Positions 18,709-64,000 of a stretch of DNA of 64,000 nucleotides are shown here, in pieces (positions within the stretch are counted from its first letter, which is position 1; every line of letters begins with the position of its first letter). The stretch covers positions 1 through 64,000 of the forward strand of contig JALAGF010000414.1 of the NCBI GenBank assembly GCA_030167865.1, read 5' to 3'. The DNA is from Craspedostauros australis (taxonomy: Eukaryota). The translations under genes and the position numbers were made by a program. Below the pieces are notes generated by a model. It was not told the origin of the DNA, did not search any database, and saw only the letters and a list, made by a program, of their open reading frames with translations.

Positions 18709-20907
18709 ATGCTTCGTCTGATGAAAGATAAAGCCAACGAGGAGCAGCAACAGCTCCATCGCAACGCGCATCACACCACACCCCAGAAGAAGTTCTCGCT
18801 CCAATCCGCCCCATCGCAATCGCAGCATCCGATTTCTGCCATGGCGCCCAAGATCGTTTCCCACGTGCCGATCTCCGTCGGCACCAGAACCTCCTCCTCT
18901 GAGCAGAGCGCATCCGACAGCACCATCTCCTCGACAAGCAACAGTGCTGGCACGGACATCCATCGGACGAACATAACGACGACTCCATCTCCTCTGCATG
19001 CATCAACACCAGCTTCGGCGACGAGCACAGCGTCCACCACAACTTTCACAACAGCGACAACTGCGACAAAAGTTTCACGATCGAAATTCTCTGGAGATTC
19101 CTTCGTTGAATCTTCGCTCACCCCTCCACGCACGTCTCTCGATCACGGAGTCGAATCTCAAAAAATCATCAGCAACAGTAAAAGCAACAGCAACAGTCCT
19201 TCCTCCGTAGCCGCCACCGGCAACAAACGCAAGGCGCACAGGGTATCAATCGACGAGCAACAGCAGCAACAGCCCAATGCGGAAACTATTGCAACTGTTG
19301 CAACGCCGGTTCCACCATCACCACCGTTGCAAGCGTTCGCCCAGCCAATCAACAAGCGACTCAAGCGATCAATACATCTTCCAACCAGCCACCACACCAT
19401 CAATGTCATCGCCGCAACCACCAATGGCTCGCTGCAGCAGCTGCACCAGCAGCAACGCCACGCATCGCCCACTGCTGCTCCAATCACGTTGCTGCGTCAA
19501 CCGGAGGATGATCACTATCTCAACGACCTTCACATCTTCGTGCGTCGAAACATCGAGGTCTTCGCAGCAACCACGGCGGAGCTGTCCCAGCCAGCGCCAG
19601 GGAGGAAACATCCCATCCGCATGCACCAGGTCGGTCTGCGATGCATCCACTGCCGAGACCTGCCGCACAAGAACCGCGTCAAGCGGGCCGTCTGCTACCC
19701 AACCTCCGTCAGCCGCGTCTACCATTCTGTCTCGGATATGAAGTTCGATCACTTCATGCACTGCCCCAAGCTGCCCCACGATCTGCGCCAGCGCTTCCAA
19801 GACCTCAAGAATGACAGGAGGCGGTGCAACCGCAGGACCAAGGCCGCCGCATCTTCCAGCGGCAACGCGACGGCGTCCACCGCGCAGTACTACTATGACT
19901 CTGCCATTCGCATGGGCATGGTGAATGGTCGTCATGGAATCTTCTTTGACAACGCCACCAAGACCAACAACAGCAGCAGCAGCAACAAGAACAGCAAACC
20001 AGCCAGTGCTCCACTGGCGCAAACCCAAAACACTCAAGCTACACCACCAACATCTCAACCACATCAGGTGTCGCCGTACCATTCCAAGGCAGCTTCCTTG
20101 CTCACCTCGCTTTCCGTGCTGCAGTGCCATCCGTCAATGGCGCCAATGATGCCCGCAACATCAGTAGGGTCGACCACGGCTCTAACCACTGCAACGTCAG
20201 CAGCCACGGCAATAGCAGCGGCTCCATCTCCGCCTTCTTCCATCATGTACAGCCTACTGGCGCATGGTGCCAGTACACCTCCTCTGCCAGGGGTTTCGGC
20301 ACCATGCACAAAGGCGCCAACGCAAAGCATCAAGACGGGGATTCCATTGGCAAGCTCCGACGATCCGGCCGCCTTGAATCCTCTCCACTGCTTCGTCCGA
20401 CGCAATATCGAAGTCTTCGAGGCCAACGCCGAGCACATCGCCGCACCGGCACCAGGCCGCAAGGCCAAGGTCACGCTGGGTCAGGTCGGCATCCGCTGCA
20501 CCCACTGCGCGCAGCTGCAACCACGGCAACGCGTCAAACGCGCCGTGTGCTACCCCCCGTCCGTCGCTGGCATCTACCACTCCGTCTCCAACATGAAGTT
20601 CGACCACTTCGCCAACTGCAAGGGCCTTCCCGCCAAGGAGCGCGACGAGTTCCTGCAGCTCAAGAAGTCCTGCTCGCGCCATCGTTCGACCAGCCGTCTT
20701 CCCACCTCGACCACGGCGCAGTACTACCAGGAGTCGGCCATGCGCATGGGGCTCGTCGACACAAGCGAGGGCATTCGATACGTGTCCAAAGTTCAGACGC
20801 AGCAGTCCACGGAGATCGCTGCCCTGTTGCCGCCGTTGCGTGCCAGGACGCAGATCTCCTCTGGCATCTCGGCCCTGATGATGGCGGCCGCCCAGACCAT
20901 CGTCTGA
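18709..20907 (+). CDS. Uncharacterised protein with two copies of a Cys/His-rich domain and S/T/Q-rich linkers (start could be 18709, 18721 or 18841)
   Basis: 732-aa open frame with a duplicated LHxFVRRNIEVF...PAPGRK...QVGxRCxHC...KRAVCYPxSV...YHSVSxMKFDHFxxC...AQYY..SAxRMG module. Confidence 0.85.
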   Translation: MLRLMKDKANEEQQQLHRNAHHTTPQKKFSLQSAPSQSQHPISAMAPKIVSHVPISVGTRTSSSEQSASDSTISSTSNSAGTDIHRTNITTTPSPLHASTPASATSTASTTTFTTATTATKVSRSKFSGDSFVESSLTPPRTSLDHGVESQKIISNSKSNSNSPSSVAATGNKRKAHRVSIDEQQQQQPNAETIATVATPVPPSPPLQAFAQPINKRLKRSIHLPTSHHTINVIAATTNGSLQQLHQQQRHASPTAAPITLLRQPEDDHYLNDLHIFVRRNIEVFAATTAELSQPAPGRKHPIRMHQVGLRCIHCRDLPHKNRVKRAVCYPTSVSRVYHSVSDMKFDHFMHCPKLPHDLRQRFQDLKNDRRRCNRRTKAAASSSGNATASTAQYYYDSAIRMGMVNGRHGIFFDNATKTNNSSSSNKNSKPASAPLAQTQNTQATPPTSQPHQVSPYHSKAASLLTSLSVLQCHPSMAPMMPATSVGSTTALTTATSAATAIAAAPSPPSSIMYSLLAHGASTPPLPGVSAPCTKAPTQSIKTGIPLASSDDPAALNPLHCFVRRNIEVFEANAEHIAAPAPGRKAKVTLGQVGIRCTHCAQLQPRQRVKRAVCYPPSVAGIYHSVSNMKFDHFANCKGLPAKERDEFLQLKKSCSRHRSTSRLPTSTTAQYYQESAMRMGLVDTSEGIRYVSKVQTQQSTEIAALLPPLRARTQISSGISALMMAAAQTIV

Positions 20908-21805
20908 GCATACTCTCTCTGGAGAGCAGTGCCAAGGTATCCTACATTAGAGTTGGAACTCAATTTTGAACAATACCAATAAATATACATCAGCAACAAT
21001 TACAACATTATGAGTAACCTCGCATTTAGAAGACATCTTGATTTCTATCAGCATAGTTGGAGGACTGCACTCTTTCCTCTTTGGACCATACTCTATGGAT
21101 GCGGACGGAGCACATGGATTTGCATCTAATGTTGCAGTTCTGGGTGTGCGTATCCGAACTGTTCTTCACTCTTCGTTGTTCTTGCTTCGTGTGCGTAGCC
21201 TTTCGGACGTGAACAAGTTGTTAGAAGCCGCGGTAAATGTGTTCAAAGGGTAATTTAACTGCGTTTTCTGTTTTGTCCATCACTGGTTACGTCTGCCCAT
21301 CTTTCAGTATCGATTTTGGCAAGCGAAGCATCTTCCACGTACCTATCTGCACAGCTCCACCTTCACGGACAGCCTCGTGCATTGGCGTGTCTGCTCCAGA
21401 CCCAATCGCTCTTGCTACACCTGCTGGTTGACAGATCCACGGAAGAGTCGCAATGAGGGATGCTCCGCGATTATCTGTGCTCTTGTCGACAAACGTGGAA
21501 TCCAACAGGATGGCAACTGCCAACTAACTCATTCATCTCCTCGCAGATGTAGCGGAACGTGTGCAATTGGTGCTGCTCTGGGAATCAGTATTGAAGTATT
21601 GTGATGTGTTGAAAATGGAATATTTACATCTGTTGCTACGGTGCTTTAGCTGGGTTCTATTCAACAGGTTCATGGAAGTGCATTCATAATCGTGCATGAT
21701 ATTGGTGGTGTATTGGTACATTGGGACTTTGCATCTGCGGAGGATTGCGGAAAACTGTTGCGCGCATGTGCTTGTCGCATGGTTTCATGCTTGGTCGCTG
21801 GTGTT

Positions 21806-22498
21806 TCACGCGGCTGTGCAGAGCGTGTGACCTTTCTGCTGGAGGTTGCTGTCTTTCTTGATGGCCTCGAGAATTGCAAGGTTGGCCTGAGTGAACGATG
21901 GCTCGGCGGCGGTTGGCGCTGTTCTCTGGATCTCGATCATGCGCTGGTTGATGAAGCTGTTGGTCTCGAGCAGCGTCTTGAGGTCGATGTCGACCTGGAT
22001 GCTGGCTTCGAGCCTGCGGCTGCGCTTGGCCTTGGAGGAGGATTTGTACTGTCCATGCAGGGAGTCGCGGAAGTGCTGTCCGACCTTCTCCCTCGCCAAG
22101 TGGTCGCCGATCTCGTGCCATCGACCGCTCTGGAACTTGACGAAGCCGCCATTCGGGCTGGCATCGCGGATCTCGTCGATCACCTGCGTCACGATCTTCG
22201 ACTTCTCCACGCGGCTGTTGGCGTCGGCGTAGAGGCTGAGGTGGCGCTGGATGCGGCGCTTGAAGTTGCGGTTGCCGCTGTGCATGCGTGCCTCCTTGCC
22301 GGTGGCGCAGATGACGTCGAAGGGACCTGGAGTGAAGTCATCCGAAAGCGGAGACATCTTGCCGATTCGGCTGGTGGTCTTCTGAGTGACGTTGGTGATT
22401 GGGGCAGGCATGACGATGTTGAGCGCGATTGGGATGCTGCTGCTGCCGAAAGATGAGACGAGGTTGTTCTGGGAGTTGGTGTTGCTGATGGCTGGCAT
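21806..22498 (-). CDS. DUF6824 domain protein (alternative upstream start at 22729 would add polyQ)
   Basis: PGPFDVICATGKEARMHSGNRNFK...Y..A.SRVEKSKIV..VID..R...GGFVK...W.EIGDHLAREKVGQHFRD. Confidence 0.85.
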   Translation of the reverse strand: MPAISNTNSQNNLVSSFGSSSIPIALNIVMPAPITNVTQKTTSRIGKMSPLSDDFTPGPFDVICATGKEARMHSGNRNFKRRIQRHLSLYADANSRVEKSKIVTQVIDEIRDASPNGGFVKFQSGRWHEIGDHLAREKVGQHFRDSLHGQYKSSSKAKRSRRLEASIQVDIDLKTLLETNSFINQRMIEIQRTAPTAAEPSFTQANLAILEAIKKDSNLQQKGHTLCTAA

Positions 22499-22570
22499 GA
22501 TTGCTGTTGTTGATGCTGTTGCTGATGTGATTGGGTGATTGGGAAGTTGAGCGGTGTAGTGACTGTTTGA

Positions 22571-22693
22571 TTGTTGTTGTTGCTGTTGTTGCTGTTGTTG
22601 CTGTTGTTGCTGTTGTTGCTGTTGTTGCTGTTGTTGCTGTTGTTGCTGTTGTTGCTGTTGTTGCTGTTGTTGCTGTTGTTGCTGTTGTTGCTG
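22571..22693 (-). repeat. (CAGCAACAA)n microsatellite, 41 Gln codons in frame with the DUF6824 ORF
   Basis: Near-perfect 9-bp periodic array, (GCTGTTGTT)n on the + strand. Confidence 0.95.
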
Positions 22694-24875
22694 TGAATTT
22701 GATTTTATGAGGAGGAGAGGACACATCATGGATCAGGCCTGTTCGTGTCCACGATGCACAACGCCCAACGCGCAGAACAACATGCACAAAGACAAACAAC
22801 AGAGACACAAAAGCTGGATTCCGACGTTCGCTGTCATCGTCGCCACACCGCGCTTTGCTCTTTGTCGTGGTTGTTTTTCTCGTTCACGGTTGCCTCCTCT
22901 GTGATTCAACTCGGTTTGCCACAACCAAAACGACGACCAAAGTGTGATCTGTGATTGTCAGCACGCAGAACGTGTTCTTGATCGAAAACGAAATGCAAAC
23001 ATCTAACCTTCGGTAGCGCAACGATTGCCAATCGGCTTTCAGCTTCTGGTCGAACCCTAAGCAAAACACATGACTAAATTTCTCGCATCTCCAACTGTGA
23101 CAGAACAGGGAATGATACGAGGCGACGTACAGACGCCATCGTTAAGCAACATCGACGAACAGGCAAAAGGCAGTCACATTTTGTCCACATTGGCCGGTTG
23201 CGATGGTGTCGTTGCTCGTCGCGCGTCGATGTTGGTGTGGGACAGGTGGGGTATGGACACGGACACACATCCTCCCTCCCCTGTGACCTTGTGCTCACTT
23301 CCCACCATCGCACTGGGCTTGCACCATGGCTCCCACAATGGCAACCTCCTGCATGGAAGGATACCAGTCGCCACGAAATCGAAGTGTGTTACGATACCTG
23401 CGCACGGTGGAATGGACATACAAATACTCCTTTGGTTTGATAAGGTATCTACCAATACCAGCGACGTGCGGAAGAAGCCGCCAGAGAGACAGAGAGAGAG
23501 AGAGTACTCTTCTCTGCGTCTCTCGAGGCAGCATTCTATTCCGTTCGGAGCTGCATTCGTGCATCTTTTTATACTAGTACCACACTAACACTCCTGCTCA
23601 CACTGTGACGCAATCAAGCTGTACGACCGACCCATGCAAGGCTCAGCTGCCCACCATACGTACAACGCAGCGTATCCCCACCAAGCAGTATCGGATGTTC
23701 ATCTCCCCCATCCGAACACTGAAAATAAGCGAGGCACGCGGAATGGTCCACATGGTCGACCTTCCCGTGCCCTACCAGTACGGTCTATGAAACAGCTACA
23801 CCGACAATGATCTCCTCAGGGGCCGTCACTTCCAATGTGGACAGCAGGATGAGAGTTGAGCCAATCGTGTGAAATGCAACACCTGTATCGTCAATGGTGC
23901 CATGTCCCGTTGCATGCTGAGAGACGTACGAGCTGGTACCAAGGTCAACAACATGAGGCGTTTTGTCTCGTCGGAGGTTCGGATCCTGGCGAGATCATTT
24001 TGGCCAAATTGTGTCGGCGCACCCATTCATGACCAAGCGGGATTCACTACAGGTTGTCCCCGTTTGATCAACTCGACTAATTAATTACCCGTTACTATTT
24101 TGCGCAACACGCGAAAAAGACAGCGCTGGAATCGCCGTTGCTGTGTGACGAAAACGAGATCGAGGAGCAGCAACCAAGAACCAGCAAGCGATCAGCAAGC
24201 AACACCCACACAGCAGCAACTGCGGCATCACCAACACCACCAGCACAAGCCCCTTGAAGGTACGGCAATGACGCCGCTGACGGCGATGGGATTGCAGGAA
24301 GCGCGATGACATGATGCACCGTTTGGAAAGGATTCAACAAGCGTGAAGAACGTTGCAGGAAATGGGTTTGTTGGGTGGCGCTGGGCGAAACGGAGCAGCT
24401 GAGTCTTCTGATCTGCTGTCCCGGAAGGGCGCTGAACGACCGCTGGACCAACAAGATGGACTGATGCGCGGTACAGCGAATGTTGCGACACGGCGCAATC
24501 GACGATGAGGAGGATCCCCATCTGGTGAATAAACAGATGAACTGGTGGCTTCTATCTGAGCGCGGAGATCAGCGCCATCCAGCATCACCAACGGAATGAT
24601 CCTCCGCATGCTGCTCCAGGAAGGCCAACATGAAGTCCGCCAACGCAGCACATTCTGAACCACCCAACATCCCCAGTCCTTGAACGAAGCAACACCTTGA
24701 AGTACCTGCAAACGGCGTTGCTTTCAAACACTCACGGATGCTTGCTTTCCATTTCACTTCATTGACGCACCGTTGAATTCGCATCCCACAAACATGCACA
24801 CACGCAATCGATGCCAACAACAATTTTGCAAATGCTACAGAACGATTTCAGAACAGTCACCACGAATATCACAAA

Positions 24876-25064
24876 ATGGTCGAGTCAAGAAAGCCAAACA
24901 AGCTGTACGCCACACACCCAAAGGGATATGGAAAGGGATCCCGCGCATGCCGCGTCACTGGACGTGAGGGTGGTGAAGGTCTGATCCGCAAATACGGAAT
25001 TAACATGAAGCGTCAGGTGTTCCGTGAGCGCGCCCTGGACATGGGATGGATGAAGTACAACTAA
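24876..25064 (+). CDS. RPS29: 40S ribosomal protein S29 (uS14), variant lacking most zinc ligands
   Basis: LYATHPKGYGKGSRACRV...GLIRKYGINMKRQVFRERALDMGWMKYN; ACAAAATG start context. Confidence 0.93.
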   Translation: MVESRKPNKLYATHPKGYGKGSRACRVTGREGGEGLIRKYGINMKRQVFRERALDMGWMKYN

Positions 25065-27153
25065 ATCCGCGCGCCTTGGTGGATAGAAAATAAACAGGAG
25101 ACTTACCGGCCACCTACTACTACTACCACATCAAACAACCAATGATATCGAGTTCTATGGCTGTGCAATTAGACCTGTTGCGCATGTGGCCGCCCAACCA
25201 TGAATACTGTTTGGCATGTCCAGTTGCTGTCAAAATGTGGAGACGATACTGTGCGGTTTGGCTACCACAATTGCCCAACAAGAGTGCAGAACAACAACGG
25301 TATCGAGGAACGGATTACCACCTATTGTATCAAATTGCCTGTGGACAGCGATGATCTTGAGCAATCTGAAGATGTCTTGATGCGGACCCATTTACAAGCA
25401 AACGATTCTTTGTCTCTCTCTCCAGCTTCTTATCTACTCACACACCCTCCCAATGGGATATTTCAGCGTACGACGCAACAGGAAGTAACAGAGCATGCGT
25501 ATTGATGGATAGGCAGGGATTGGAGTGATCTGTGGTACTGCTCCCATTCAAGCCAACACCATCCACTTGATGAAAGAACTCCTTGGCTGATTTCTTCAAT
25601 GTTCTTGCTTGCTACCTGCCATGATCGCAGCGACGAAGTCCAGAAACGACATCTCAAGAGCACGGTTTGTTGGCGTTTTCCTACGTGCTCATACTCTATC
25701 TTCGTTTCGTAGATGGTGATACGATGTTGTGTCCTTTTTGGGTTCTGCGTGAACCGGAGAAGGTCATAGTACGCGTCCTCGAATAAAGTAGCCATAGATC
25801 AAAAAGTCATCCTCCGATGTGAGACAAGTTGAATGTCTCGCGTGCGACAAGATTCACAACGGCGATGTGTACTGACACGAAACACGGACATGTTCCAGTT
25901 CCCCCAAAAGCGACGGCACAACGAAGCACATGGATCCGTGACGACGACAAAATCAAACTTTGCCGAAGTGCCTTCGCATGGATCACCGTGAACGGTGATC
26001 CTGGTGTTCCACCACTGCGTGTGCAACCATTCGCGGCTTCACCCCCTTGCGCGGCGTATTTGCATGGCTGTGCCTGCCAACACAGAGTTGGCTTGAGCAC
26101 CAGAAGCACTAAAATACCTGCGCACGGTTCTACCACACGATCACGAGTAGAGGAGTGAAACCGGCGACACAGCGCGCGCTGGAGAGGAAGCGGCCAACAC
26201 CTCCACCACCAACAAGCAACAGACACGAGGAGACCAACACTGCAACAGCCCAGGCCTCCAGGGTACACTCGCAGCAACCAAGACCACCAACAACCTGCTC
26301 GCAACCCCCTGGGGAAAGCACGTCACAGGAAAGACCAGATAAGACCACAACAAGGCAAGACATCGAGCGGACGCACACGCAGGAGCAGAGCAACGCAGAC
26401 ATCGTCTTGTTGTGCACGAACTCTCCTCCGTTGTTTTGGGGGTCTCCGAGATCTCTCCCTTCGCCAAACATCCTTCGATCTCGTTCCGTATCAAACCCTG
26501 TGGTTGATCGTCGCTTAGAAGTTGCGCCTACAACAGAGACAACTACAATAGCAACATTACAACGACGACATCGACAGCAACGATAACATCGACATCGATA
26601 ACACAACCTGGCAGAACCGCAGAGAAGGCAGACAGTAGAGACTTTCATCCATCAGCAAGCAAGCAACCAACCAACCAACCAGGCAGGCAGTCATTCGCCA
26701 TCACCAAACTACCTTGGCCGAGACATCTCATCAGACACCAACAAACACTGCTTGACGGATCGGTTGCCAAGACCAACAGGGACCTATCATACCATACCGC
26801 ACACCCTCGCACTGTTAAACACAGCGAACCACACTCTACCGTATCTGCGAATACCAGACCAAGCCACACAACACACTACAACACAACACAATAGAGTAGG
26901 TGCGCCCATTCGCAATACCACTTCCACGCAAGGACACAAGCACACAACTGCACATCACGTCAAGCCAAGCCAAGCCACTTCAGGCGACGCTATCCGTACA
27001 TCACACAACATTACACTACTCTACTCTACTCTACGCCACGCAGTCTATCTACACTGGAGTAAAGGCAGAAGCAAAGCCAAAGGCCAGCACAAACACAGAC
27101 AAGCAGTGAGCACCACACGCAGGCTGTGGTTGCAACAACGATAGCAGTTGAGG

Positions 27154-29281
27154 ATGGGATGCGGCTCATCTGTGCCTGACGGGCCAGGCCCAGGCAAATC
27201 AGAAGCGGCCCTGCAGAGGCGGCCAGGAGGAGATGACCCCGCAGAGCTCGCCAAGTCCAGCGGCATCGACAGAGACCTGGACAGAGCCAGGCAGCAGGAG
27301 GAGCTCAAGGTCAAACTGCTGCTGCTCGGGGCGGGAGAGTCAGGAAAGTCCACCATCTTCAAACAGATGCGCATTCTGCACGGATCTCCAAGGTCAGAAG
27401 ACGATCAGAGGATGTACGGAGTCGTCGTGCGTTCCAACATCATCACGGCCATGCGCAAGCTGTGCCAGCTGCTGCGCACTCTGGGCCTGGAGGAACAGCT
27501 CGCGCAGGACGCGCCCACCGATCCGGAAGACCCCACCACGCCGAAGGAAGCCTTTGACATGCTCATCGCGCATCTGGTGGAGAACACGGCGGAGCCCATG
27601 GGCGACACGGCGAATGGAGGCGGTGAGGACTGGGTTGGTCACAGCGCAAGAGCGGGCCTTGGACCCAACAACGATGCCAAGCAGTTCCTGCAGCTGTGGA
27701 AGCCCATGAAGATCCTCTGGGATGTAAGTTCATGCATGCACATCACAGTGAATTGTATTGCGTTGCATTGTATTGTATTGTATTGTATTGTATTGTATTG
27801 TATTGTATTGTGTTGTGTTGTGTTGTGTTGTGTTGACCGAAGTTGAGATGACTGATGTGCATGCGCATGCATGCGTGGAAATGGTGGAACATGGAGCGCC
27901 CAAGTCAATGAATGCAGCGCTGCAGTTTCGCCCTTGCATCGTCGTTCACAACAACAACAACACAGCAACAGCCCGGCTGCTTGCCTGGCTGTCGTATTAA
28001 TGTTGCTGCATTCAACTCACCTTCCCATTCCCCACCTGTCTCTATCTCTATCCCTATCCAACTATCTCATCCAACCACGACATGTCAACATCTGCTCTCC
28101 CCAACTGCAACAATCACATGAACGAACACCGACAACGACGCAACCAACACCAGTCAACCACCATGAGAGAGGTCTGGCAGAAACGATCCCAAGCCAACAT
28201 TATCGATGGACACAACGAGTATCTGCACAACATAACGCGCCTCGCCGCCCCCACCTTCCGCCCCACCACGCAGGACATCCTGCTGGCCCGTGTCAAAACT
28301 ACGCAAGTCGTCATGGAACGGTACCGCATCGATGGGATCGACTTTGAGATGTACGACGTGGGTGGCCAGCGGTCCGAGCGCCGCAAATGGATTGACTGCT
28401 TTGACAATGTGGACGCCGTGATTTTCGTTGCCGCTCTGTCCGAGTACGACCAAACACTAGCCGAGGCCAGGAGAACGAACCGCATGGTCGAGGCGCTGGA
28501 ACTCTTCAAATCGGTCTGCAACAACAGAGCATTCGCCAACACATCGATCATGCTCTTCCTCAACAAGAAGGACGTCTTCGCGGAGAAGATCCTCTACAGC
28601 GACATCCAGGCCCAGCCGCCCTTCCGAGACTACGCAGGACCACCCCACGAATTCAACAGCGGCGTCCTCTACTTCATCCAAAAGTTCAAGGACTGCTTGA
28701 TCAATGACGACTTCAACGACTCCTTCATTCATGTTACCTGTGCAACTGATACCAACAACAGTAAGTGCAAACGGAGGCCGTCCAAGTCAATTCAACTCAA
28801 GTCAATGCGGCATATCTCAGTCCAGTTCAGCCCAGTTCTTTGCGCATCATCTCTCCACGCCCTCACCATCTCACCCATTCTTCGTGCCTTCTCGAACAAC
28901 ATATGCTTTGCCCTCACATTTGCTTTTGCACCACCATTGCTGCGTACTCGTATGGTACCATTACCCACTCTGACACCCAACCACAGTGGAATTCGTGTTG
29001 GATTCCACAAGAACAATCATCATGACGGACGTAAGTGTTACAAACCTGCTGCTGACCCTTGCCAATCTCGATTGTCGGACGAGCACCTTGTCTTGGCCAT
29101 AGTGCAATGCCCTGCTTCTGCCATGCAACATGTCTCACCCCTCATTTCCTTCCTCTCCCACGAACGATTCCGGTATGATGATACCAATATTACTACTTTC
29201 GACACCGACATCCCCAACTCCATTCCCGCATCGTGCCAAACACAGAACTTGCGACGATCGGGATTCCTCGGGTCTAGTTAA
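27154..29281 (+). CDS. Heterotrimeric G protein alpha subunit; exons 27154-27723, 28154-28760, 28987-29030, 29246-29281
   Basis: MGC N-terminus; GAGESGKST, ARVKTT, DVGGQRSERRKW, FLNKKD and TCATD motifs; GT-AG introns in consistent phase. Confidence 0.95.
27753..27835. repeat. Compound pentanucleotide microsatellite (TATTG)n(TGTTG)n in G-alpha intron 1
   Basis: Visible directly in the sequence. Confidence 0.9.
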
Positions 29282-30640
29282 GGAGTGGCGCTGTGTCCAG
29301 GCCATGGCCAGATCATGCCATGTCATCTGTCCGACGCACTTTGTGTAACTGCGTGCGCATTCATGGTCTGGTGCAGTTTCATGCACCAAGTACCTTTCCA
29401 AATGCCTACTGCGCGATGCGTCGACCCCGGTTCAACGGCTGGACGGCTTGTTTCGGAAAGGTCCGACCATGCTCCGTGTCGCATGCTGAACTGTGCGGAA
29501 GATGGATGGATGGATGAACAATGGACAGCAGGAGGATGTGATGGCTTTGTTTTGCCGTCTGCACCTCCTGCTGCTTCTGCTTTCGAATCGCGCGAGAGCA
29601 TTCCTGGCGGACGTTGCTTCCTTCGTTTGGGTGAAAGGGAGTACCATGCAACTACTACATACGAGTGCAGTCCTGCTCTATCCTCGTCTACTCTACTATT
29701 GTGCAAATCATAGTGTACGTCCGCACAAAAGCCAGGAATGCAGACACATCCACGCACACATGACGGAGGGAACAAGCCAAGAGGAAACAAATCAAGAACA
29801 CGCACAATACTATTACTTTTTGTTAATGTCACGGTGAGACCATCAATCCTGGAGACATCTCTGCTCCTCTTCGCACTACTTGACATTATATTCATACGGA
29901 TGGTACATTGAATCCAGTAGTGCAGAGCAGGTTACTTGGACTCTTCCATTGGGCCATTATCAAACAAGCGTATATTATACAAGAGCAGATGGGATATGAT
30001 CTTGCTGTGCGAGTATGGTATGTGTGGCAGGAGAGTCGCCTTCTGCCCTGGATGCTTTCACTTTGGTCCAAGTTGCTGGACTCTCTCTAGTTTTGCCTTG
30101 TCTACATTCATGTTCTTCGTTGGGGCTCGCGCGGAGAAACAGCGCTTTGTACCGTTATAAATAACGTCGATTGTCGATCAAACGAGACGCTCGACCAAAT
30201 GGACAGCAATGCTGTGTGTGGATCTGCAGACAATTCAAAAATTGACCCATGAGGACAGCATTGGATTCGAGTTCGGTGGGACGTTATTTCGTGTCTTCGG
30301 CCGAGCCAGCCAACGCGACAGCACCAGAAAAAAGAAGAAACACCGCGCAACAGGACAGCAAGAACAGCAACCACGATGGGGGCGTTGGCTTCCTGAATCA
30401 CACCGCTTCCAAGACACGCCAACTCGTGGGAGAGGAGACCAGCCTCCTCCCGAATTCACATCGTCTGACCGACAAGAAGAAGACCAAACGGATACGAACA
30501 GACACACCAAGGCAGCCGCATCCACCCCTCTGCCAAGACAGTGCACAAAGCAACACGAACAGAACCAGAAGGGACTTCGGTGTAGCAAACGAACGAACGG
30601 CAACGGCAATACCAATAACAATACCAACACCAGCAACACC

Positions 30641-32200
30641 ATGTCCGCTTACCCAAAGGAACCGGTCGGTAACATGGCCACCTTCAACATCAACCATGGC
30701 TTCACCGAGGCCTTGGTTCGTGGTATGCGATGCTCCTTCCTCAAGGACTCCGATTACCATCACCTGACCCAGTGCGAGAGTCTCGAGGATGTTGCGCTGA
30801 ACCTTAACGAGAGCGACTACAGCGAGGCCCTCGCCGATCTCGACTCCCTGACTCCCAACGCCCTGCAGAAGGTCGCCGTGGAGAAGGTACGTTGCGGTGC
30901 GCTACAATACGTTACGTTACTTTCTTTATTTGGCATTTTGGTGGTTCAGTGTGCTGAAGCGTTGGCGCGTTGGCTTGCAGTTCGATACAACCAATGTGCC
31001 ATCTCTGCATGGATCTCTGCTGAGCCTCTGCTGAGCATTCTAAAGCACGCACGAACTAACACACACAACTCCACTCTGCCTGTCTCCATACTCACCATCA
31101 CATGGGGTTTGGTCTGCGCTGATCTGCACACCCTGTGACGATGCTTAATTCGTTCAACAACATCATGTAACGTGATGCAATGTGCTGTAATGTGCTGCAA
31201 TGTGATGGGACATTGTCAATTATCACTCGCCACTTCCACCGCAACAACTATCGCCAATACTGTGACTCTGTTCCTGCAGCTCGTCGATGAATTCAAGTAC
31301 CTTCGCATGCAGTCGGTGCAGCCACTCTCGAAGTTCCTGGACTTCATCTCCTACGAATACATGATCGAGAATGTGATGCTCCTGTTGAAGGGCGCCCTCA
31401 GCGGACGCGACATCAACGAGCTCCTCGAGCAGTGCCACCCTCTGGGTATGTTCAAGGAGTCCGTCATGAGGAGCATCCCCACATTCGAAAACTCGTCGCG
31501 CGGATACTCCGACCTCTACCAGACAGTCCTCGTCGACACTCCCGTCGGCCAATACTTCGCCACATTCCTCCAGGAATCTGCCGAGGCCAGAGGAGGTGGA
31601 TCCCGCAACGTCCTCGAGGAGGTTGAGATCGAGATCATCAAATCGTCGCTCATCAAGTACTGGTTGGAGGACTTCGCCAACTTCTGCGACACCATGGGCG
31701 GAGACACAGGAAGCCTCATGGGCGAGATCTTGAGAGTGCGCGCCGACACCAACGCCATCAACATCACCCTCAACTCCTTCGGCACACCCCTCAACGAGCC
31801 AAACATGCGCGTCACGGACCGAAAGCGCCTCTACCCAGCCGTCGGACATCTGTACCCGGTCGGCACCACCATGCTCACCGATGTCGGTGACGAGGATGAG
31901 CTCGGCAACGTCCTCGAGCTCTTTCCGCAGTACGCCGGAATCTGGAACCTCCATGCCTCTGGATCCGTCGAGAAGAGCATCGATGATGCCTTCTATGAGC
32001 GCGATGTGCAGATGCTGGAGCTCGCCTTCGAGAGCCAGTTCCACTTCGGCGTCTTCTACGCCTACGTCAAGCTGAAGGAGCAGGAAATCCGCAACCTTGT
32101 ATGGATCACTGAATGCATCCTGCAGCAGCAGAAGGATGAGATCGAGAAGTTCGTCCCAGTCTTCTCCCAGCACGCACCATGGCGCGAGAAGAAGCGATAA
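30641..32200 (+). CDS. ATP6V0D: V-type ATPase V0 subunit d; exons 30641-30886, 31280-32200
   Basis: FNINHGFTEALVRG...LTQCESLED...EK|LVDEFKYLR...YMIENVMLLLKG...CHPLG...QFHFGVFYAYVKLKEQEIRNLVWI.ECI. Confidence 0.96.
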
Positions 32201-61159: not shown

Positions 61160-61233
61160 NNNNNNNNNNNNNNNNNNNNNNNNNNNNNNNNNNNNNNNNN
61201 NNNNNNNNNNNNNNNNNNNNNNNNNNNNNNNNN
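61160..61233. other. Assembly gap (74 N)
   Basis: N run flanked on both sides by the same 15-mer AACAGATTCGTCCCA. Confidence 0.97.
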
Positions 61234-64000
61234 AACAGATTCGTCCCAACAACACCATCCACCACAGAAACTGAACAACAACGCAATTGCATCCAGCACA
61301 GCAAGTCAACCAGGGCCACAGGTCAACCTTATCATTAACAACGACTCCATTGTGGCCGTCGAAGATATGCTCAGTGTGTGCTGAGCAGAATGACACTGCG
61401 TAGTTCAGTATCGACAGCATCGTCGACGACCATGAGACACCACCATCTCATGAACACACCGGCGGAGTCATCTACCAAGCTACTCCACCAGCACCTACCG
61501 CAGCATTGTCAGCGGATGCAGCAACCATTGTCAACAATTTGTACCAACACACAAGGAATACAAGTATGGTTGAAGGGCAATGGTGGATCTGGAGCTGCAT
61601 CTCCTTGCACTTCCACTGCAGGCCAAATTCTCATCCTACATGATGTCAATGGGCAAAGGGCAGTGACGAGCAGTCAGCAATGCACAACGAGCTGCGAATG
61701 GCATGCATCAGGGCAACAACAACCTCAACAACACTGGCATCACAGCGGCAAGGACAATGCTCAGTGAGTTGGTGCATTCAGAGCCTTGTGGATGGCTGAG
61801 CATTGAGCCTGTGGAATGAACATCACAGTAGTCTTCAGAAGTTGTATATTNGGCTGATGGTCAATAGCAGAGCATCTGGCTGGAAGCAACTGATGGGCAG
61901 AGAGCACAGCATACAGTACAGATCTCATCAATGTATGTCGCAACAGACGGAGAGCACTACATCCCATCAAAAGCATGAAAGGCAACATCCGGCAAACACC
62001 AACACACATACTAATCACTGGCACCACACAGAATGAAGAGCGCAGACTGCTTCCTGAAGCAACCAACCGATGAGAAGACTGCATTCAGCAAGATCCAGGA
62101 ATATTGTTATTGATCAACAAGTAGTAGGCAGTTTCCAGAAGAAGCAAAAGGGCTTCCAACCACAGCCAATGAATTCCTACACGGCTCAATATCGAGAAGA
62201 GTATCTGGCTTCAACCAGGTACTAGTGGGTTAGTAGTGAGCACCACCACATGACATTTGGCAACCAGTAGTGAAGCAATGAAGNNCATTCAGAACGAGGA
62301 GCATCCAACCACAACCAAATCCACAGAGAAGATCCAACAGGAAGCAACCAGCAGCAGAAAAGGATCAAGCATCGAATACTCTGCAAAGTAATTGGAAACA
62401 ATCAAGAAACTACAAATCCCCAACACCAGAGTACCCAACAAAGAGCATAGTACATGCAGCAAAGTATCTCAAAACGATCAACAGATCACTCTGCATCATT
62501 TGGCAGAGAGCAGAGCCCACAGGTCACAGCTGCAGAGCCCACAGGGTACATAACAGAGAACACCTGACTGAGTTCTGTTGGCTGCAACCAACAAATCAGC
62601 AGAGTATTTGTTAACAATCACTTGTTCCAGTTTGATTTGTCATCACCTACATCAATGCCACTCATTGATCATTGTGCTCTAATTGATGTTGCTCCTCTGG
62701 CATCCCACGGAATGCTGTCTGATGCGGATGCGCGCCTGCACACACTACAGATTCTGCGTGGCTCAAATGTCAAACAGCATGAGCATCGTACGATCTACAA
62801 TTCCATCCACAAAATCCATTCCAAACTGTCGCCGCTCGCCGCTCCCAAACGCACGAACAAACCAACACAAACGAACGCAAATGAATGGGCAGACAAGTGA
62901 TCACTCCGCACAACAAACAAAATCCACAATTCAGCAGCGCAAACCAACCAACAGACAAACGACCAAATCCATGAATGGCAGAACACACAGAATGGACAAA
63001 CTGCTGCACCAATAGATGCCAACCAAACATACAATACCGCTCTTCGCATCCGAAGATCTTTTGCAGCAATGGTCAACTACTGTGCTCATCAGCCAGTCCC
63101 CCACAGCTGTCAATGCCATAAATGCCATCAACAACCAACCAAATCATCTTGCATGTCCAGCAAGAAATGGTGGAATGCATGGTACCATCAATGCATCGAA
63201 GCCATCATGCCATACCAAAGGATTCCCACCATGGCTAAATCACAAAGATCATCTGTGCCTGCGTTGTCCTCGAGAGTCCGTACCATTCCTCCCACACCAC
63301 TGCCACTGTTGCACACATGAAAGGATTGTTTGAGAACATATTCGTGGGATGCATGGAGTGCGCAGGGTACCTACTCGAGGAGCTCTGCAATGGCCATGCT
63401 GACAAGCAGTTCATGAAGAATGTTGCCAAGGACCCAGGCATCCTCGTCTGTGCCATCAGGTTGATTTGCGCCAACCTGGATGCAGTTCTTGTCTTCTCAT
63501 CCATCCAATCGTGGAGGCCATGCGCTTCCAGTACATGCGCTGGCTTGGACGTAAGTGTTGACTCACAACCGCAGTCGCAGCAACCCATCACCATCACTGT
63601 AGCAATTGCCCATCATGTGTTTGTGTGCTGCACTTCAAACACTTGCACACCAACACAATCACACCCATTCTCTCCTTTTCCTTTTCTCGTCATCCATACT
63701 TTTCATCCACTCCACATCATCCTGATGGGACCAAGTGCAATGCAATACACAATTGCAGGGCTTCCAGACAACCTCCAGTTCCTTGTCGCCACAGCCATGC
63801 AGCACACAACACACCGCACTCTTCACGCAGCACACAGTACACAGGCCTACTCGTAAGAACTACTTTGCCTCAATCAACACCAACTTCTGTCCATATGCTG
63901 GCATCGACCCAACTGTCGCTACAATCATGCACAAGCCAGGCGTTGATACCACCATGAACCTCATCAATTTCGCCCACTTTGTGGGAGCATCCTTTCAGAA

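What the first reader, a model, noticed from the sequence alone, without database searches (positions are those of the whole stretch)
24876..25064. Zinc-free (C-minus) eukaryotic ribosomal protein RPS29/uS14
Seen: the protein reads SRA-C-RV-T-GREGGEGLIRKYGINM-K-RQ-V-FR. Established: eukaryotic RPS29 carries a C-x2-C...C-x2-C zinc ribbon (CRVC...CRQC), and bacteria have C-minus S14 paralogues used under zinc starvation. Here three of four ligands are replaced (T, K, V), a short Gly-rich insert is added, and the rest is conserved in an intact ORF. Inference: this is a zinc-sparing cytosolic ribosome adaptation in a phytoplankter, either constitutive or a low-zinc paralogue swapped in on demand.
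Basis: partly seen in the sequence, partly recalled or inferred. Interest (0 to 1): 0.78.

Follow-up and report, generated by a model that had tools for sequence, protein, structure and literature searches.

The report
Diatom ribosomal protein S29 without zinc site
This is the normal, expressed gene for small ribosomal protein S29 of a diatom, and like the S29 of all diatoms examined it has lost three of the four cysteines that hold a zinc ion in most other eukaryotes.

Summary
Window 24876..25064 (+) is an intact 62-codon ORF that matches Pfam Ribosomal_S14 and 57 solved uS14/S29 chains. It keeps only the first of the four zinc-ligand cysteines (C25; T28, K45, V48 replace the others) and has a two-residue Gly insert.

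It is not a peculiarity of this genome. 110 of 111 scorable sequences show the same pattern, including named diatoms, a Parmales alga and two dictyochophytes.

Evidence that the gene is alive:
- 18 of 18 full-length metagenomic orthologues are intact.
- dN/dS against the window is 0.04-0.15.
- A public run holds an identical, colinear contig covering the ORF and ending in an A-run. The same run holds a spliced contig of the neighbouring gene.

So this is the constitutive diatom RPS29, not a dead retrocopy.

I found no four-cysteine copy in the window or among named diatoms in two protein searches. No whole genome was available, so the low-zinc swap model is unsupported but not excluded.

Similar ligand losses occur in fungi. 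Kluyveromyces lactis is one, and its 40S structure is solved. Zinc economy as the driver is therefore plausible but unproven. Seven literature searches found no description of the diatom-wide loss. Interest is moderate.

The parts
24876..25064 (+). RPS29/uS14 coding sequence: 62 codons plus TAA, no intron
   Evidence: ORF. (PF00253, 36.6 bits). (57 solved uS14 chains). (an RNA-derived contig is colinear across it with 0 differences).
24948..24950 (+). Codon of Cys25, the only zinc-ligand cysteine retained (ligand 1)
   Evidence: tgc. Cys in 77 of 78 rows of alignment A1.
24957..24959 (+). Codon of Thr28, in the place of ligand 2
   Evidence: In A1: T 62, C 7, S 6, Q 3 of 78 rows.
24960..24980 (+). 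Loop G29-G35 (G-R-E-G-G-E-G). It is two residues longer than in four-Cys S29.
   Evidence: gap in the target opposite G32-G33; loop of 7 residues against 5 in all 7 four-Cys rows. The G-R-x-G-G-x-G pattern is conserved in the diatom-type rows.
25008..25010 (+). Codon of Lys45, in the place of ligand 3
   Evidence: K in 67 of 78 rows of A1, C in 7.
25017..25019 (+). Codon of Val48, in the place of ligand 4. This is the most variable of the four positions.
   Evidence: In A1: V 37, T 13, A 11, C 9, S 4, Q 2, E 2 of 78 rows.
25065..25145 (+). 3' untranslated region of 81 nt. AATAAA lies at 25089-25094. The end of the transcript is at 25145.
   Evidence: the contig ends at 25145 with a loose end of 8 A. 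AATAAA position.
24230..24875 (+). 646 nt upstream that lie in the same RNA-derived contig. They hold 18 ATGs. It is unclear whether this is a true leader or an overlapping transcript merged by the assembler.
   Evidence: contig 24230-25145. (uATG count).

Best explanation
This is the ordinary, constitutively used gene for cytosolic small-subunit ribosomal protein uS14 (RPS29) of a diatom.

In the lineage that includes diatoms, Parmales and dictyochophytes, the four-cysteine zinc site of the protein was dismantled long ago. Ligand 1 stays Cys. Ligand 2 became Thr or Ser, ligand 3 became Lys, and ligand 4 became a small or aliphatic residue. The knuckle loop gained two residues, giving G-R-x-G-G-x-G.

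Shown here: family membership, ligand loss, lineage-wide conservation, purifying selection, and presence in processed RNA.

Inferred:
- The protein sits in the 40S head like other uS14.
- It carries no structural zinc.
- Its fold is held by the lengthened Gly loop, the conserved Lys and Arg, and the surrounding rRNA.
- Each diatom ribosome therefore needs one zinc ion fewer.

Whether selection for zinc economy, selection for a redox-insensitive protein, or neutral compensated drift fixed the change is not decided by this evidence.
For: Identity:
- PF00253 above its cut-off.
- 57 solved uS14 chains matched.
- All 50 top Foldseek hits of the model are uS14 chains, although the model is of low confidence.

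Lineage-wide trait:
- 110 of 111 scorable sequences (110 database hits and the window's own protein) have Cys at ligand 1 and no Cys at ligands 2 and 3. One further hit, P0092, has a deletion there and was not scored.
- Named sources: Seminavis, Thalassiosira oceanica, Amphiprora, Eucampia, Ditylum; Discostella, Cyclotella cryptica, Stephanodiscus, Thalassiosira punctigera and T. minuscula; Parmales sp.; Florenciella and Rhizochromulina.
- Several of these records come from transcriptomes (MMETSP), so the orthologues are expressed.

Selection:
- 18 of 18 full-length metagenomic loci are intact 62-codon ORFs ending in a stop.
- dN/dS against the window is 0.042-0.148 in the 14 pairs that are not saturated. 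The other 4 are saturated at synonymous sites.
- pN < pS in 164 of 171 pairs. The other 7 are pairs of identical proteins.

Expression of this very gene:
- Run X1 holds a 924-nt contig on 24230-25145 with 0 differences, ending in a loose run of 8 A, 51 nt (25095-25145) after an AATAAA.
- The same run holds a contig of the neighbouring G-alpha gene that skips three GT..AG introns. Its contigs therefore derive from processed RNA.

Precedent that a uS14 with 1 of 4 Cys works in a eukaryotic ribosome:
- The best PDB match (3j80_d, 5it7_d) shows C-x2-S ... D-x2-S in the printed alignment.
- 3J80 was built on Kluyveromyces lactis 40S subunits (passages of PMC4217140).
Against: - No whole genome was available, so a second, four-Cys copy elsewhere in this genome is not excluded.
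- No metal measurement or ribosome structure exists for a diatom, so 'zinc-free' rests on ligand loss alone.
- Cys25 is kept in 77 of 78 rows of A1. Loss of the zinc site does not explain why.
- The structure model is poor (mean pLDDT 66.5). It says nothing about how the loop replaces the metal.
- Other ochrophytes (pelagophytes, brown algae, raphidophytes, a pinguiophyte, Tribonema) keep four Cys. Marine phototrophy as such does not predict the loss.
- Fungi from zinc-replete habitats lost ligands too. This weakens a purely adaptive zinc-sparing reading.
- The run's kind is recorded only as 'RNA?', which is a guess.
Confidence: 0.8

Rival explanations
1. Low-zinc swap paralogue. The genome also holds a canonical four-Cys RPS29, and this Cys-poor copy is induced and exchanged into ribosomes when zinc is scarce, as with the Zur-regulated S14 pair of Bacillus subtilis.
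For: - The bacterial precedent is described in PMC13090322 (passages).
- Both forms exist within ochrophytes: four-Cys in Aureococcus and a Pelagophyceae strain, Cys-poor in dictyochophytes and diatoms.
- The whole genome could not be searched.
Against: - There is only one S29-like locus in the 64 kb. The next best tblastn hit has E 0.07.
- No named diatom is among the 120 listed hits of a four-Cys pelagophyte query (217 hits).
- No named diatom is among the 120 listed hits of a profile of 11 four-Cys sequences like the pelagophyte query (6 from named ochrophytes, 5 unnamed; 3291 hits). Non-diatom MMETSP transcriptomes do appear in both lists.
- The Cys-poor form is the one found in diatom transcriptomes grown in ordinary culture (names).
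- No variant letters were seen in run X1 at 90% likeness.
Confidence: 0.06
2. Ancient separate gene lineage. The Gly-insert/Lys type is an old paralogue, or a laterally spread gene, shared by several marine protist groups. It is not simply the diverged orthologue of the four-Cys ochrophyte gene.
For: - With ligand and insert columns removed, 27 of 28 rows of this type form one group (support 92/94), apart from a group of 12 four-Cys rows that includes all seven from ochrophytes (87/85).
- The same type, fused to a ubiquitin-like domain, occurs in the dinoflagellate Yihiella and in several unnamed marine groups.
- The pelagophytes have four Cys, whereas the dictyochophytes have the Cys-poor type. 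These two classes are close relatives by my recall of ochrophyte phylogeny.
Against: - Only 47 columns were used, and many forks are unresolved.
- The AU test does not reject a tree with all 21 named ochrophyte rows held together against 9 named outgroup rows (p 0.233). Faster change after loss of the metal site would give the same picture.
- Yihiella is a very long branch (2.8).
Confidence: 0.1
3. Dead or decaying retrocopy of RPS29 that happens to keep an open frame.
For: The gene has no intron.
Against: - 18 of 18 orthologous loci are equally intronless and intact, with dN/dS 0.04-0.15.
- An identical contig ending in an A-run is present in a run that holds spliced RNA.
- Length and motifs are conserved across 110 homologues.
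Confidence: 0.01
4. The site still binds a metal. Cys25 and new ligands (a neighbouring residue, another protein, or rRNA) hold zinc or another ion.
For: Cys25 is kept in 77 of 78 rows of A1. It is also kept in the independent fungal losses.
Against: Thr, Lys and Val/Ala are not metal ligands. No His, Asp or Cys appears consistently nearby. One marine group has Ser at ligand 1 and no Cys at all (P0286; P0157, P0158 and P0161).
Confidence: 0.03

Closest known systems
Canonical eukaryotic and archaeal uS14 (RPS29, 'type Z' S14) with a C-x2-C...C-x2-C zinc site
   Same: Same Pfam family. 45-58% identity to solved chains. Same length class (56-62 aa). Same conserved K-G-S-R, L-I-R-K-Y-G and R-Q-x-F-R motifs.
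   Different: Only ligand 1 is Cys. There is a 2-residue Gly insert in the knuckle loop and a 4-6 residue longer N-terminus.
uS14 of Kluyveromyces lactis in solved 40S/80S structures (3j80_d, 5it7_d)
   Same: It is the best PDB match (E 4.2e-15). It is a eukaryotic cytosolic uS14 with Cys at ligand 1 only, and it sits in a working ribosome (K. lactis origin from passages of PMC4217140).
   Different: The replacements differ (Ser, Asp, Ser against Thr, Lys, Val). There is no loop insert. It is a separate loss within yeasts. No paper discussing it was found.
Bacterial Cys-minus S14 paralogues used under zinc starvation (Bacillus subtilis S14 C+/C- pair)
   Same: A member of the same protein family that lacks the CxxC zinc ligands (passage of PMC13090322).
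   Different: In bacteria the two forms coexist in one genome and are switched by a zinc sensor. The classical bacterial Cys-minus S14 is also a longer protein (recalled). Here no partner copy and no regulation were found.
Fungal Cys-poor S29 (Diaporthe spp., Saccharata proteae, Starmerella bacillaris 'S29B', Jaminaea rosea)
   Same: Ligand 2 is Thr, and ligands 3 and 4 are mostly not Cys (Starmerella keeps Cys at ligand 4). Diaporthe and Saccharata also have a 2-residue longer loop.
   Different: Ligand 3 is Ser or Gly, not Lys. The loop is G-D/E-K-K-x-x-G. In the tree they do not group with the diatom type.

Membership tests
uS14 / RPS29 (Pfam PF00253 Ribosomal_S14) | Profile match above the curated threshold | tested here: met
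   36.6 bits against a cut-off of 27, E 3.8e-9, profile positions 3-53 of 54.
uS14 / RPS29 (Pfam PF00253 Ribosomal_S14) | Sequence similarity to uS14 chains of solved ribosomes over the whole protein | tested here: met
   57 distinct chains at E<=0.001. The best is 4.2e-15, covering residues 10-61.
uS14 / RPS29 (Pfam PF00253 Ribosomal_S14) | uS14 fold | tested here: inconclusive
   AlphaFold2 model with mean pLDDT 66.5 and pTM 0.38. All 50 top Foldseek PDB hits are uS14 chains with TMq about 0.6, but the model is of low confidence.
uS14 / RPS29 (Pfam PF00253 Ribosomal_S14) | Incorporation into the 40S head | not testable with these tools
   Needs ribosome purification with mass spectrometry, or cryo-EM.
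Zinc-binding subtype of uS14 (four-Cys, C+) | Four cysteines in C-x2-C...C-x2-C | tested here: not met
   C25, T28, K45, V48.
Zinc-starvation paralogue pair (bacterial C+/C- S14 model) | Cys-minus copy that lacks the zinc ligands | tested here: met
Zinc-starvation paralogue pair (bacterial C+/C- S14 model) | A four-Cys partner copy in the same genome | tested here: inconclusive
   None in the 64-kb window. No named diatom among the 120 listed hits in each. The whole genome is not held.
Zinc-starvation paralogue pair (bacterial C+/C- S14 model) | Induction by low zinc | not testable with these tools
   No zinc-contrast expression data were reachable. Supplements of the diatom zinc proteomics paper PMC9010474 are closed.

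The most novel reading that the evidence does not exclude
The Gly-insert/Lys type of S29 is a distinct, ancient zinc-independent gene lineage. On this reading it once coexisted with the four-Cys form, or moved between lineages, in marine protists (diatoms, Parmales, dictyochophytes, at least one dinoflagellate and several unnamed groups). It became the sole copy where oceanic zinc scarcity favoured it. Some living protists would then still carry both forms and swap them, a eukaryotic counterpart of the bacterial C+/C- ribosomal protein switch.
Probability: 0.1. Interest if true: 0.65.

Novelty: new variant of a known kind. Interest (0 to 1): 0.36.

Why it matters
Ribosomes are thought to be a large intracellular zinc store. 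In a passage I read from one diatom zinc-proteomics paper (PMC9010474), zinc supply to ribosomes is assumed to be a cellular priority in diatoms.

If the main bloom-forming phytoplankton build every 40S subunit with one zinc site fewer, that lowers their minimal zinc quota. It should be counted when ribosome numbers are converted into trace-metal demand.

A recent survey of six model eukaryotes states that Rps29/uS14 keeps its CxxC motifs across eukaryotes (PMC13090322). The diatom-wide loss here, together with the fungal losses, shows that this does not hold generally.

The practical yield is modest. It gives a testable prediction for ribosome metal content and structure in diatoms. It also gives a natural example of how a small zinc knuckle is replaced by a Gly loop and a Lys.

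Tried and rejected
- **Whole-genome search for a second copy:** not possible, because no genome is held for this window.
- **Sequencing runs:** no RNA holder is listed on record. X1 is labelled 'RNA?', which is a guess. I treat its contigs as RNA-derived only because of the three GT..AG joints and the A-run seen. X2 and X3 laid nothing, which is no evidence either way. Contig depths (280, 85, 6.7) cannot rank expression, so I did not use them.
- **Structure:** the AlphaFold2 model is of low confidence (pLDDT 66.5). It gives no geometry for the former zinc site.
- **ESM Atlas:** returned only the family name.
- **Earlier findings of this scan:** nothing by sequence, by place or by several words. 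One unrelated note on an RPS29 intron in a green alga turned up.
- **My regex:** it misplaced ligands 1 and 2, so only ligands 3 and 4 can be counted there. 97 of 147 matched rows have Cys at both and 50 do not. 3 rows were unmatched; by eye two have Lys and one Thr at ligand 3. These are the 150 representatives nearest the query, so this is not a family-wide frequency.
- **Tree with all columns:** partly circular for the Cys-plus/Cys-minus split. I repeated it without ligand and insert columns.
- **AU test:** paralogy is not required (p 0.233).
- **Literature:** seven searches found no paper on zinc-ligand loss in diatom or other eukaryotic RPS29. The library lacks most subscription journals. 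Supplements were closed, so zinc-limitation proteome tables could not be checked.
- **Taxa of several unnamed Cys-poor groups:** P0094/P0101, P0116/P0121, P0286, P0124/P0421 and P0107 could not be identified.

Full report
**What is there**

Window 24876..25064 on the + strand is an uninterrupted ORF of 62 codons ending in TAA. Its product matches Pfam Ribosomal_S14 (PF00253) at 36.6 bits against a curated cut-off of 27. It also matches 57 distinct chains of solved ribosomes, named uS14, S29 or S14, with a best E-value of 4.2e-15.

The printed alignment to a canonical chain (7olc_Sd) places the residues as follows:
- C25 lies opposite the first Cys of C-x2-C...C-x2-C.
- T28, K45 and V48 lie opposite the second, third and fourth Cys.
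- A two-residue gap in the target lies opposite G32-G33.

I checked the four codons by hand on the sequence: tgc 24948-24950, act 24957-24959, aag 25008-25010 and gtg 25017-25019.

**It is the standard diatom protein, not a peculiarity of this genome**

A word-indexed search of 5.8 billion proteins returned 111 relatives. One of them (P0092) has a deletion in the knuckle, so I did not score it.

Of the 111 scorable sequences (110 hits plus the window's own protein):
- 110 have Cys at ligand 1 and no Cys at ligands 2 and 3. The commonest patterns are C/T/K/V (54), C/T/K/T (20), C/T/K/A (13), C/T/K/S (8) and C/T/K/C (5).
- One (P0111) has four Cys.

The sources name these organisms:
- Seminavis robusta, Thalassiosira oceanica, Amphiprora, Eucampia and Ditylum.
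- Discostella, Cyclotella cryptica, Stephanodiscus, Thalassiosira punctigera and T. minuscula.
- A Parmales alga of the Bolidophyceae.
- The dictyochophytes Florenciella and Rhizochromulina.

Many of these records are peptides from culture transcriptomes. In a tree, the window's protein sits inside the diatom clade (support 98/96) and is closest to Amphiprora at 90% identity.

The surrounding window is ordinary eukaryotic nuclear DNA. It encodes ankyrin repeats, a short-chain dehydrogenase, a G-alpha subunit, V-ATPase subunit d, an adaptin and others. 11 of the 22 long ORFs I scanned have Pfam families.

**It is alive**

A scan of metagenome contigs gave 23 loci. 18 of them cover all 62 codons, and all 18 are intact ORFs of 62 codons followed by a stop.

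Against the window's gene:
- Non-synonymous differences are 0.05-0.18 per site, and synonymous ones 0.52-1.05.
- dN/dS is 0.042-0.148 in the 14 comparisons that are not saturated. The other 4 are saturated at synonymous sites.
- pN is below pS in 164 of 171 pairs. The remaining 7 are pairs of identical proteins.

One public run (X1, coded) holds 94% of the sampled words of the region. Laid on 20000-30000, it gives a 924-nt contig on 24230-25145 with no differences. The contig is colinear with the genome and ends at 25145 with a loose run of eight A. That end lies 51 nt (25095-25145) after an AATAAA at 25089.

The same run gives a contig of the neighbouring gene that skips three GT..AG introns. 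The run's kind is on record only as a guess, but the spliced contig shows that it holds processed RNA. The retrocopy or pseudogene rival is therefore refuted.

**Is there a four-Cys partner?**

The whole genome is not held. Three partial tests were possible:
- Within the 64 kb there is one S29-like locus, and the next best tblastn hit has E 0.07.
- A search with a four-Cys pelagophyte S29 (P0314) gave 217 hits, of which the best 120 are listed. They include four-Cys proteins of other ochrophytes: Aureococcus, a Pelagophyceae strain, Fibrocapsa, Heterosigma, Ectocarpus, Discosporangium and Phaeomonas. I checked these sequences. No named diatom is in the list.
- A profile of 11 four-Cys sequences like that query (6 from named ochrophytes, 5 unnamed) gave 3291 hits, of which the best 120 are listed. 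This added Tribonema, again with no named diatom.

Non-diatom culture transcriptomes appear in both lists. I could not see the unlisted hits. This counts as moderate evidence against a diatom four-Cys copy, not as proof. The swap model gets about 6%.

**How singular is the loss?**

A full HMMER pass over 1.84 billion representatives found 586 relatives. I read the best 150, which are the ones nearest the query, so this is not a family-wide frequency.

Of 147 rows my script could place, 97 have Cys at both ligands 3 and 4 and 50 do not. Three rows went unplaced; by eye two have Lys and one Thr at ligand 3. My script misplaced ligands 1 and 2 in that call, so I read those by eye.

Cys-poor forms fall into several types:
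- **Diatom type:** the G-R-x-G-G-x-G loop and Lys at ligand 3.
- **A marine group with no Cys at all:** Ser at ligand 1 (P0157, P0158, P0161, P0286).
- **A type with a three-residue longer loop:** P0165, P0173, P0124.
- **Fungal types:** named Diaporthe, Saccharata proteae, Starmerella bacillaris 'S29B' and Jaminaea rosea.
- **A dinoflagellate form:** Yihiella yeosuensis, where a Cys-poor S29 of the diatom type is fused behind a ubiquitin-like domain.

The best PDB match of the window's protein is itself Cys-poor. Chains 3j80_d and 5it7_d read C-x2-S ... D-x2-S. 3J80 was built on Kluyveromyces lactis 40S subunits (passages of PMC4217140). A eukaryotic ribosome with a uS14 that has one Cys of four has therefore already been solved, though I found no paper that comments on it.

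**Single loss or old paralogue?**

I removed the four ligand columns and the insert columns and rebuilt the tree. 27 of 28 diatom-type rows then form one group (92/94). The exception is the very long Yihiella branch. All seven four-Cys ochrophyte rows fall in a separate group of 12 four-Cys rows together with greens and animals (87/85).

That pattern would fit an old separate lineage. Faster change after loss of the metal site would fit it equally well. With 47 columns, the AU test does not reject a tree that holds all 21 named ochrophyte rows together against 9 named outgroup rows (p 0.233).

By my recollection of ochrophyte phylogeny, pelagophytes (four-Cys here) and dictyochophytes (Cys-poor here) are close relatives. 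This leaves a real but small chance of paralogy or transfer, which I put at about 10%.

**Mechanism**

Shown: the protein is a uS14 that is conserved, expressed and lacks three of four zinc ligands.

Inferred from the family's known role (a small protein of the small-subunit head whose zinc knuckle is structural):
- The diatom protein occupies the same place without a metal.
- The lengthened Gly-rich loop allows the two former knuckles to pack.
- The conserved Lys45 (67 of 78 rows) and Arg30 add contacts, probably to rRNA phosphates.

The conserved Cys25 (77 of 78 rows) is unexplained. The consequence would be one zinc ion fewer per ribosome.

The cause is open, and three readings remain:
- **Zinc economy.** This is plausible for oceanic algae.
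- **Escape from a redox-sensitive CxxC site.** A 2026 paper links oxidation of such sites to zinc release (PMC13090322, passages).
- **Neutral compensated drift.** The fungal cases (a dairy yeast, plant-associated moulds) show that zinc-poor water is not required.

**Comparison with what is known, and novelty**

The gene belongs to the uS14/RPS29 family. It fails the defining feature of the zinc-binding subtype. It resembles the bacterial Cys-minus S14 only in lacking ligands. The defining partner copy and zinc regulation of that system were not found.

The proteins are public and annotated as 40S ribosomal protein S29. Seven full-text searches found no description of the ligand loss in diatoms or other eukaryotes. 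A recent survey states that Rps29/uS14 keeps its CxxC motifs in the six model eukaryotes it compared (PMC13090322). A diatom zinc-proteomics paper assumes zinc supply to ribosomes is a priority (PMC9010474, passages). Its supplements, which might list S29, were closed.

I rate it a new variant of a known kind, of moderate interest. It is a correct and apparently undescribed lineage-wide trait with a clear test. It is not a regulatory swap and is not unique among eukaryotes.

Noticed in passing
window 24230-24875 (+): The RNA-derived contig that carries RPS29 starts 646 nt upstream of the ATG. This stretch holds 18 upstream ATGs, including two 57-codon ORFs that overlap the start. That is odd for a ribosomal-protein mRNA. 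It may be a merged overlapping transcript rather than the true leader.
   Followed up: partly
window 27658-29984 (+): A G-protein alpha subunit gene (PF00503, E 7.6e-70). Three GT..AG introns (27724-28153, 28761-28986, 29031-29245) are confirmed by a spliced contig of run X1.
   Followed up: partly
window 30209-32197 (+): V-ATPase subunit d (PF01992) is split over two adjacent ORFs: profile positions 2-61 in 30209-31135 and 63-338 in 31172-32197. This is presumably an intron or a frame change between them.
   Followed up: no
proteins P0193, P0426, P0185 (Yihiella yeosuensis and unnamed): A Cys-poor S29 of the diatom type is fused behind a ubiquitin-family domain (PF00240 plus PF00253) in a dinoflagellate transcriptome. 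This would be a ubiquitin-like fusion to a ribosomal protein other than the familiar eS31, eL40 and eS30 cases, which I recall.
   Followed up: partly
proteins P0157, P0158, P0161, P0286 (unnamed marine sequences): A group of S29 homologues with Ser at ligand 1 as well, so none of the four zinc-ligand cysteines is left.
   Followed up: no
proteins P0299-P0302, P0104, P0427, P0431: Fungal S29 proteins with lost zinc ligands in Diaporthe spp., Saccharata proteae, Starmerella bacillaris ('S29B') and Jaminaea rosea. I did not check whether these fungi also keep a four-Cys copy. If they do, they would be candidates for a eukaryotic paralogue pair.
   Followed up: no
protein P0162 (MMETSP0033, name starts 'Dol'): A 103-aa protein with two S14 stretches in tandem (PF00253, 2 stretches) in a culture transcriptome.
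   Followed up: no
window 21809-22729 (-): An ORF with a DUF6824 domain (E 4.3e-20). It is the nearest long ORF upstream of RPS29, on the opposite strand.
   Followed up: no
window 61160-61233, 61851, 62284-62285: Runs of N (77 in all), that is, assembly gaps or masked bases.
   Followed up: no
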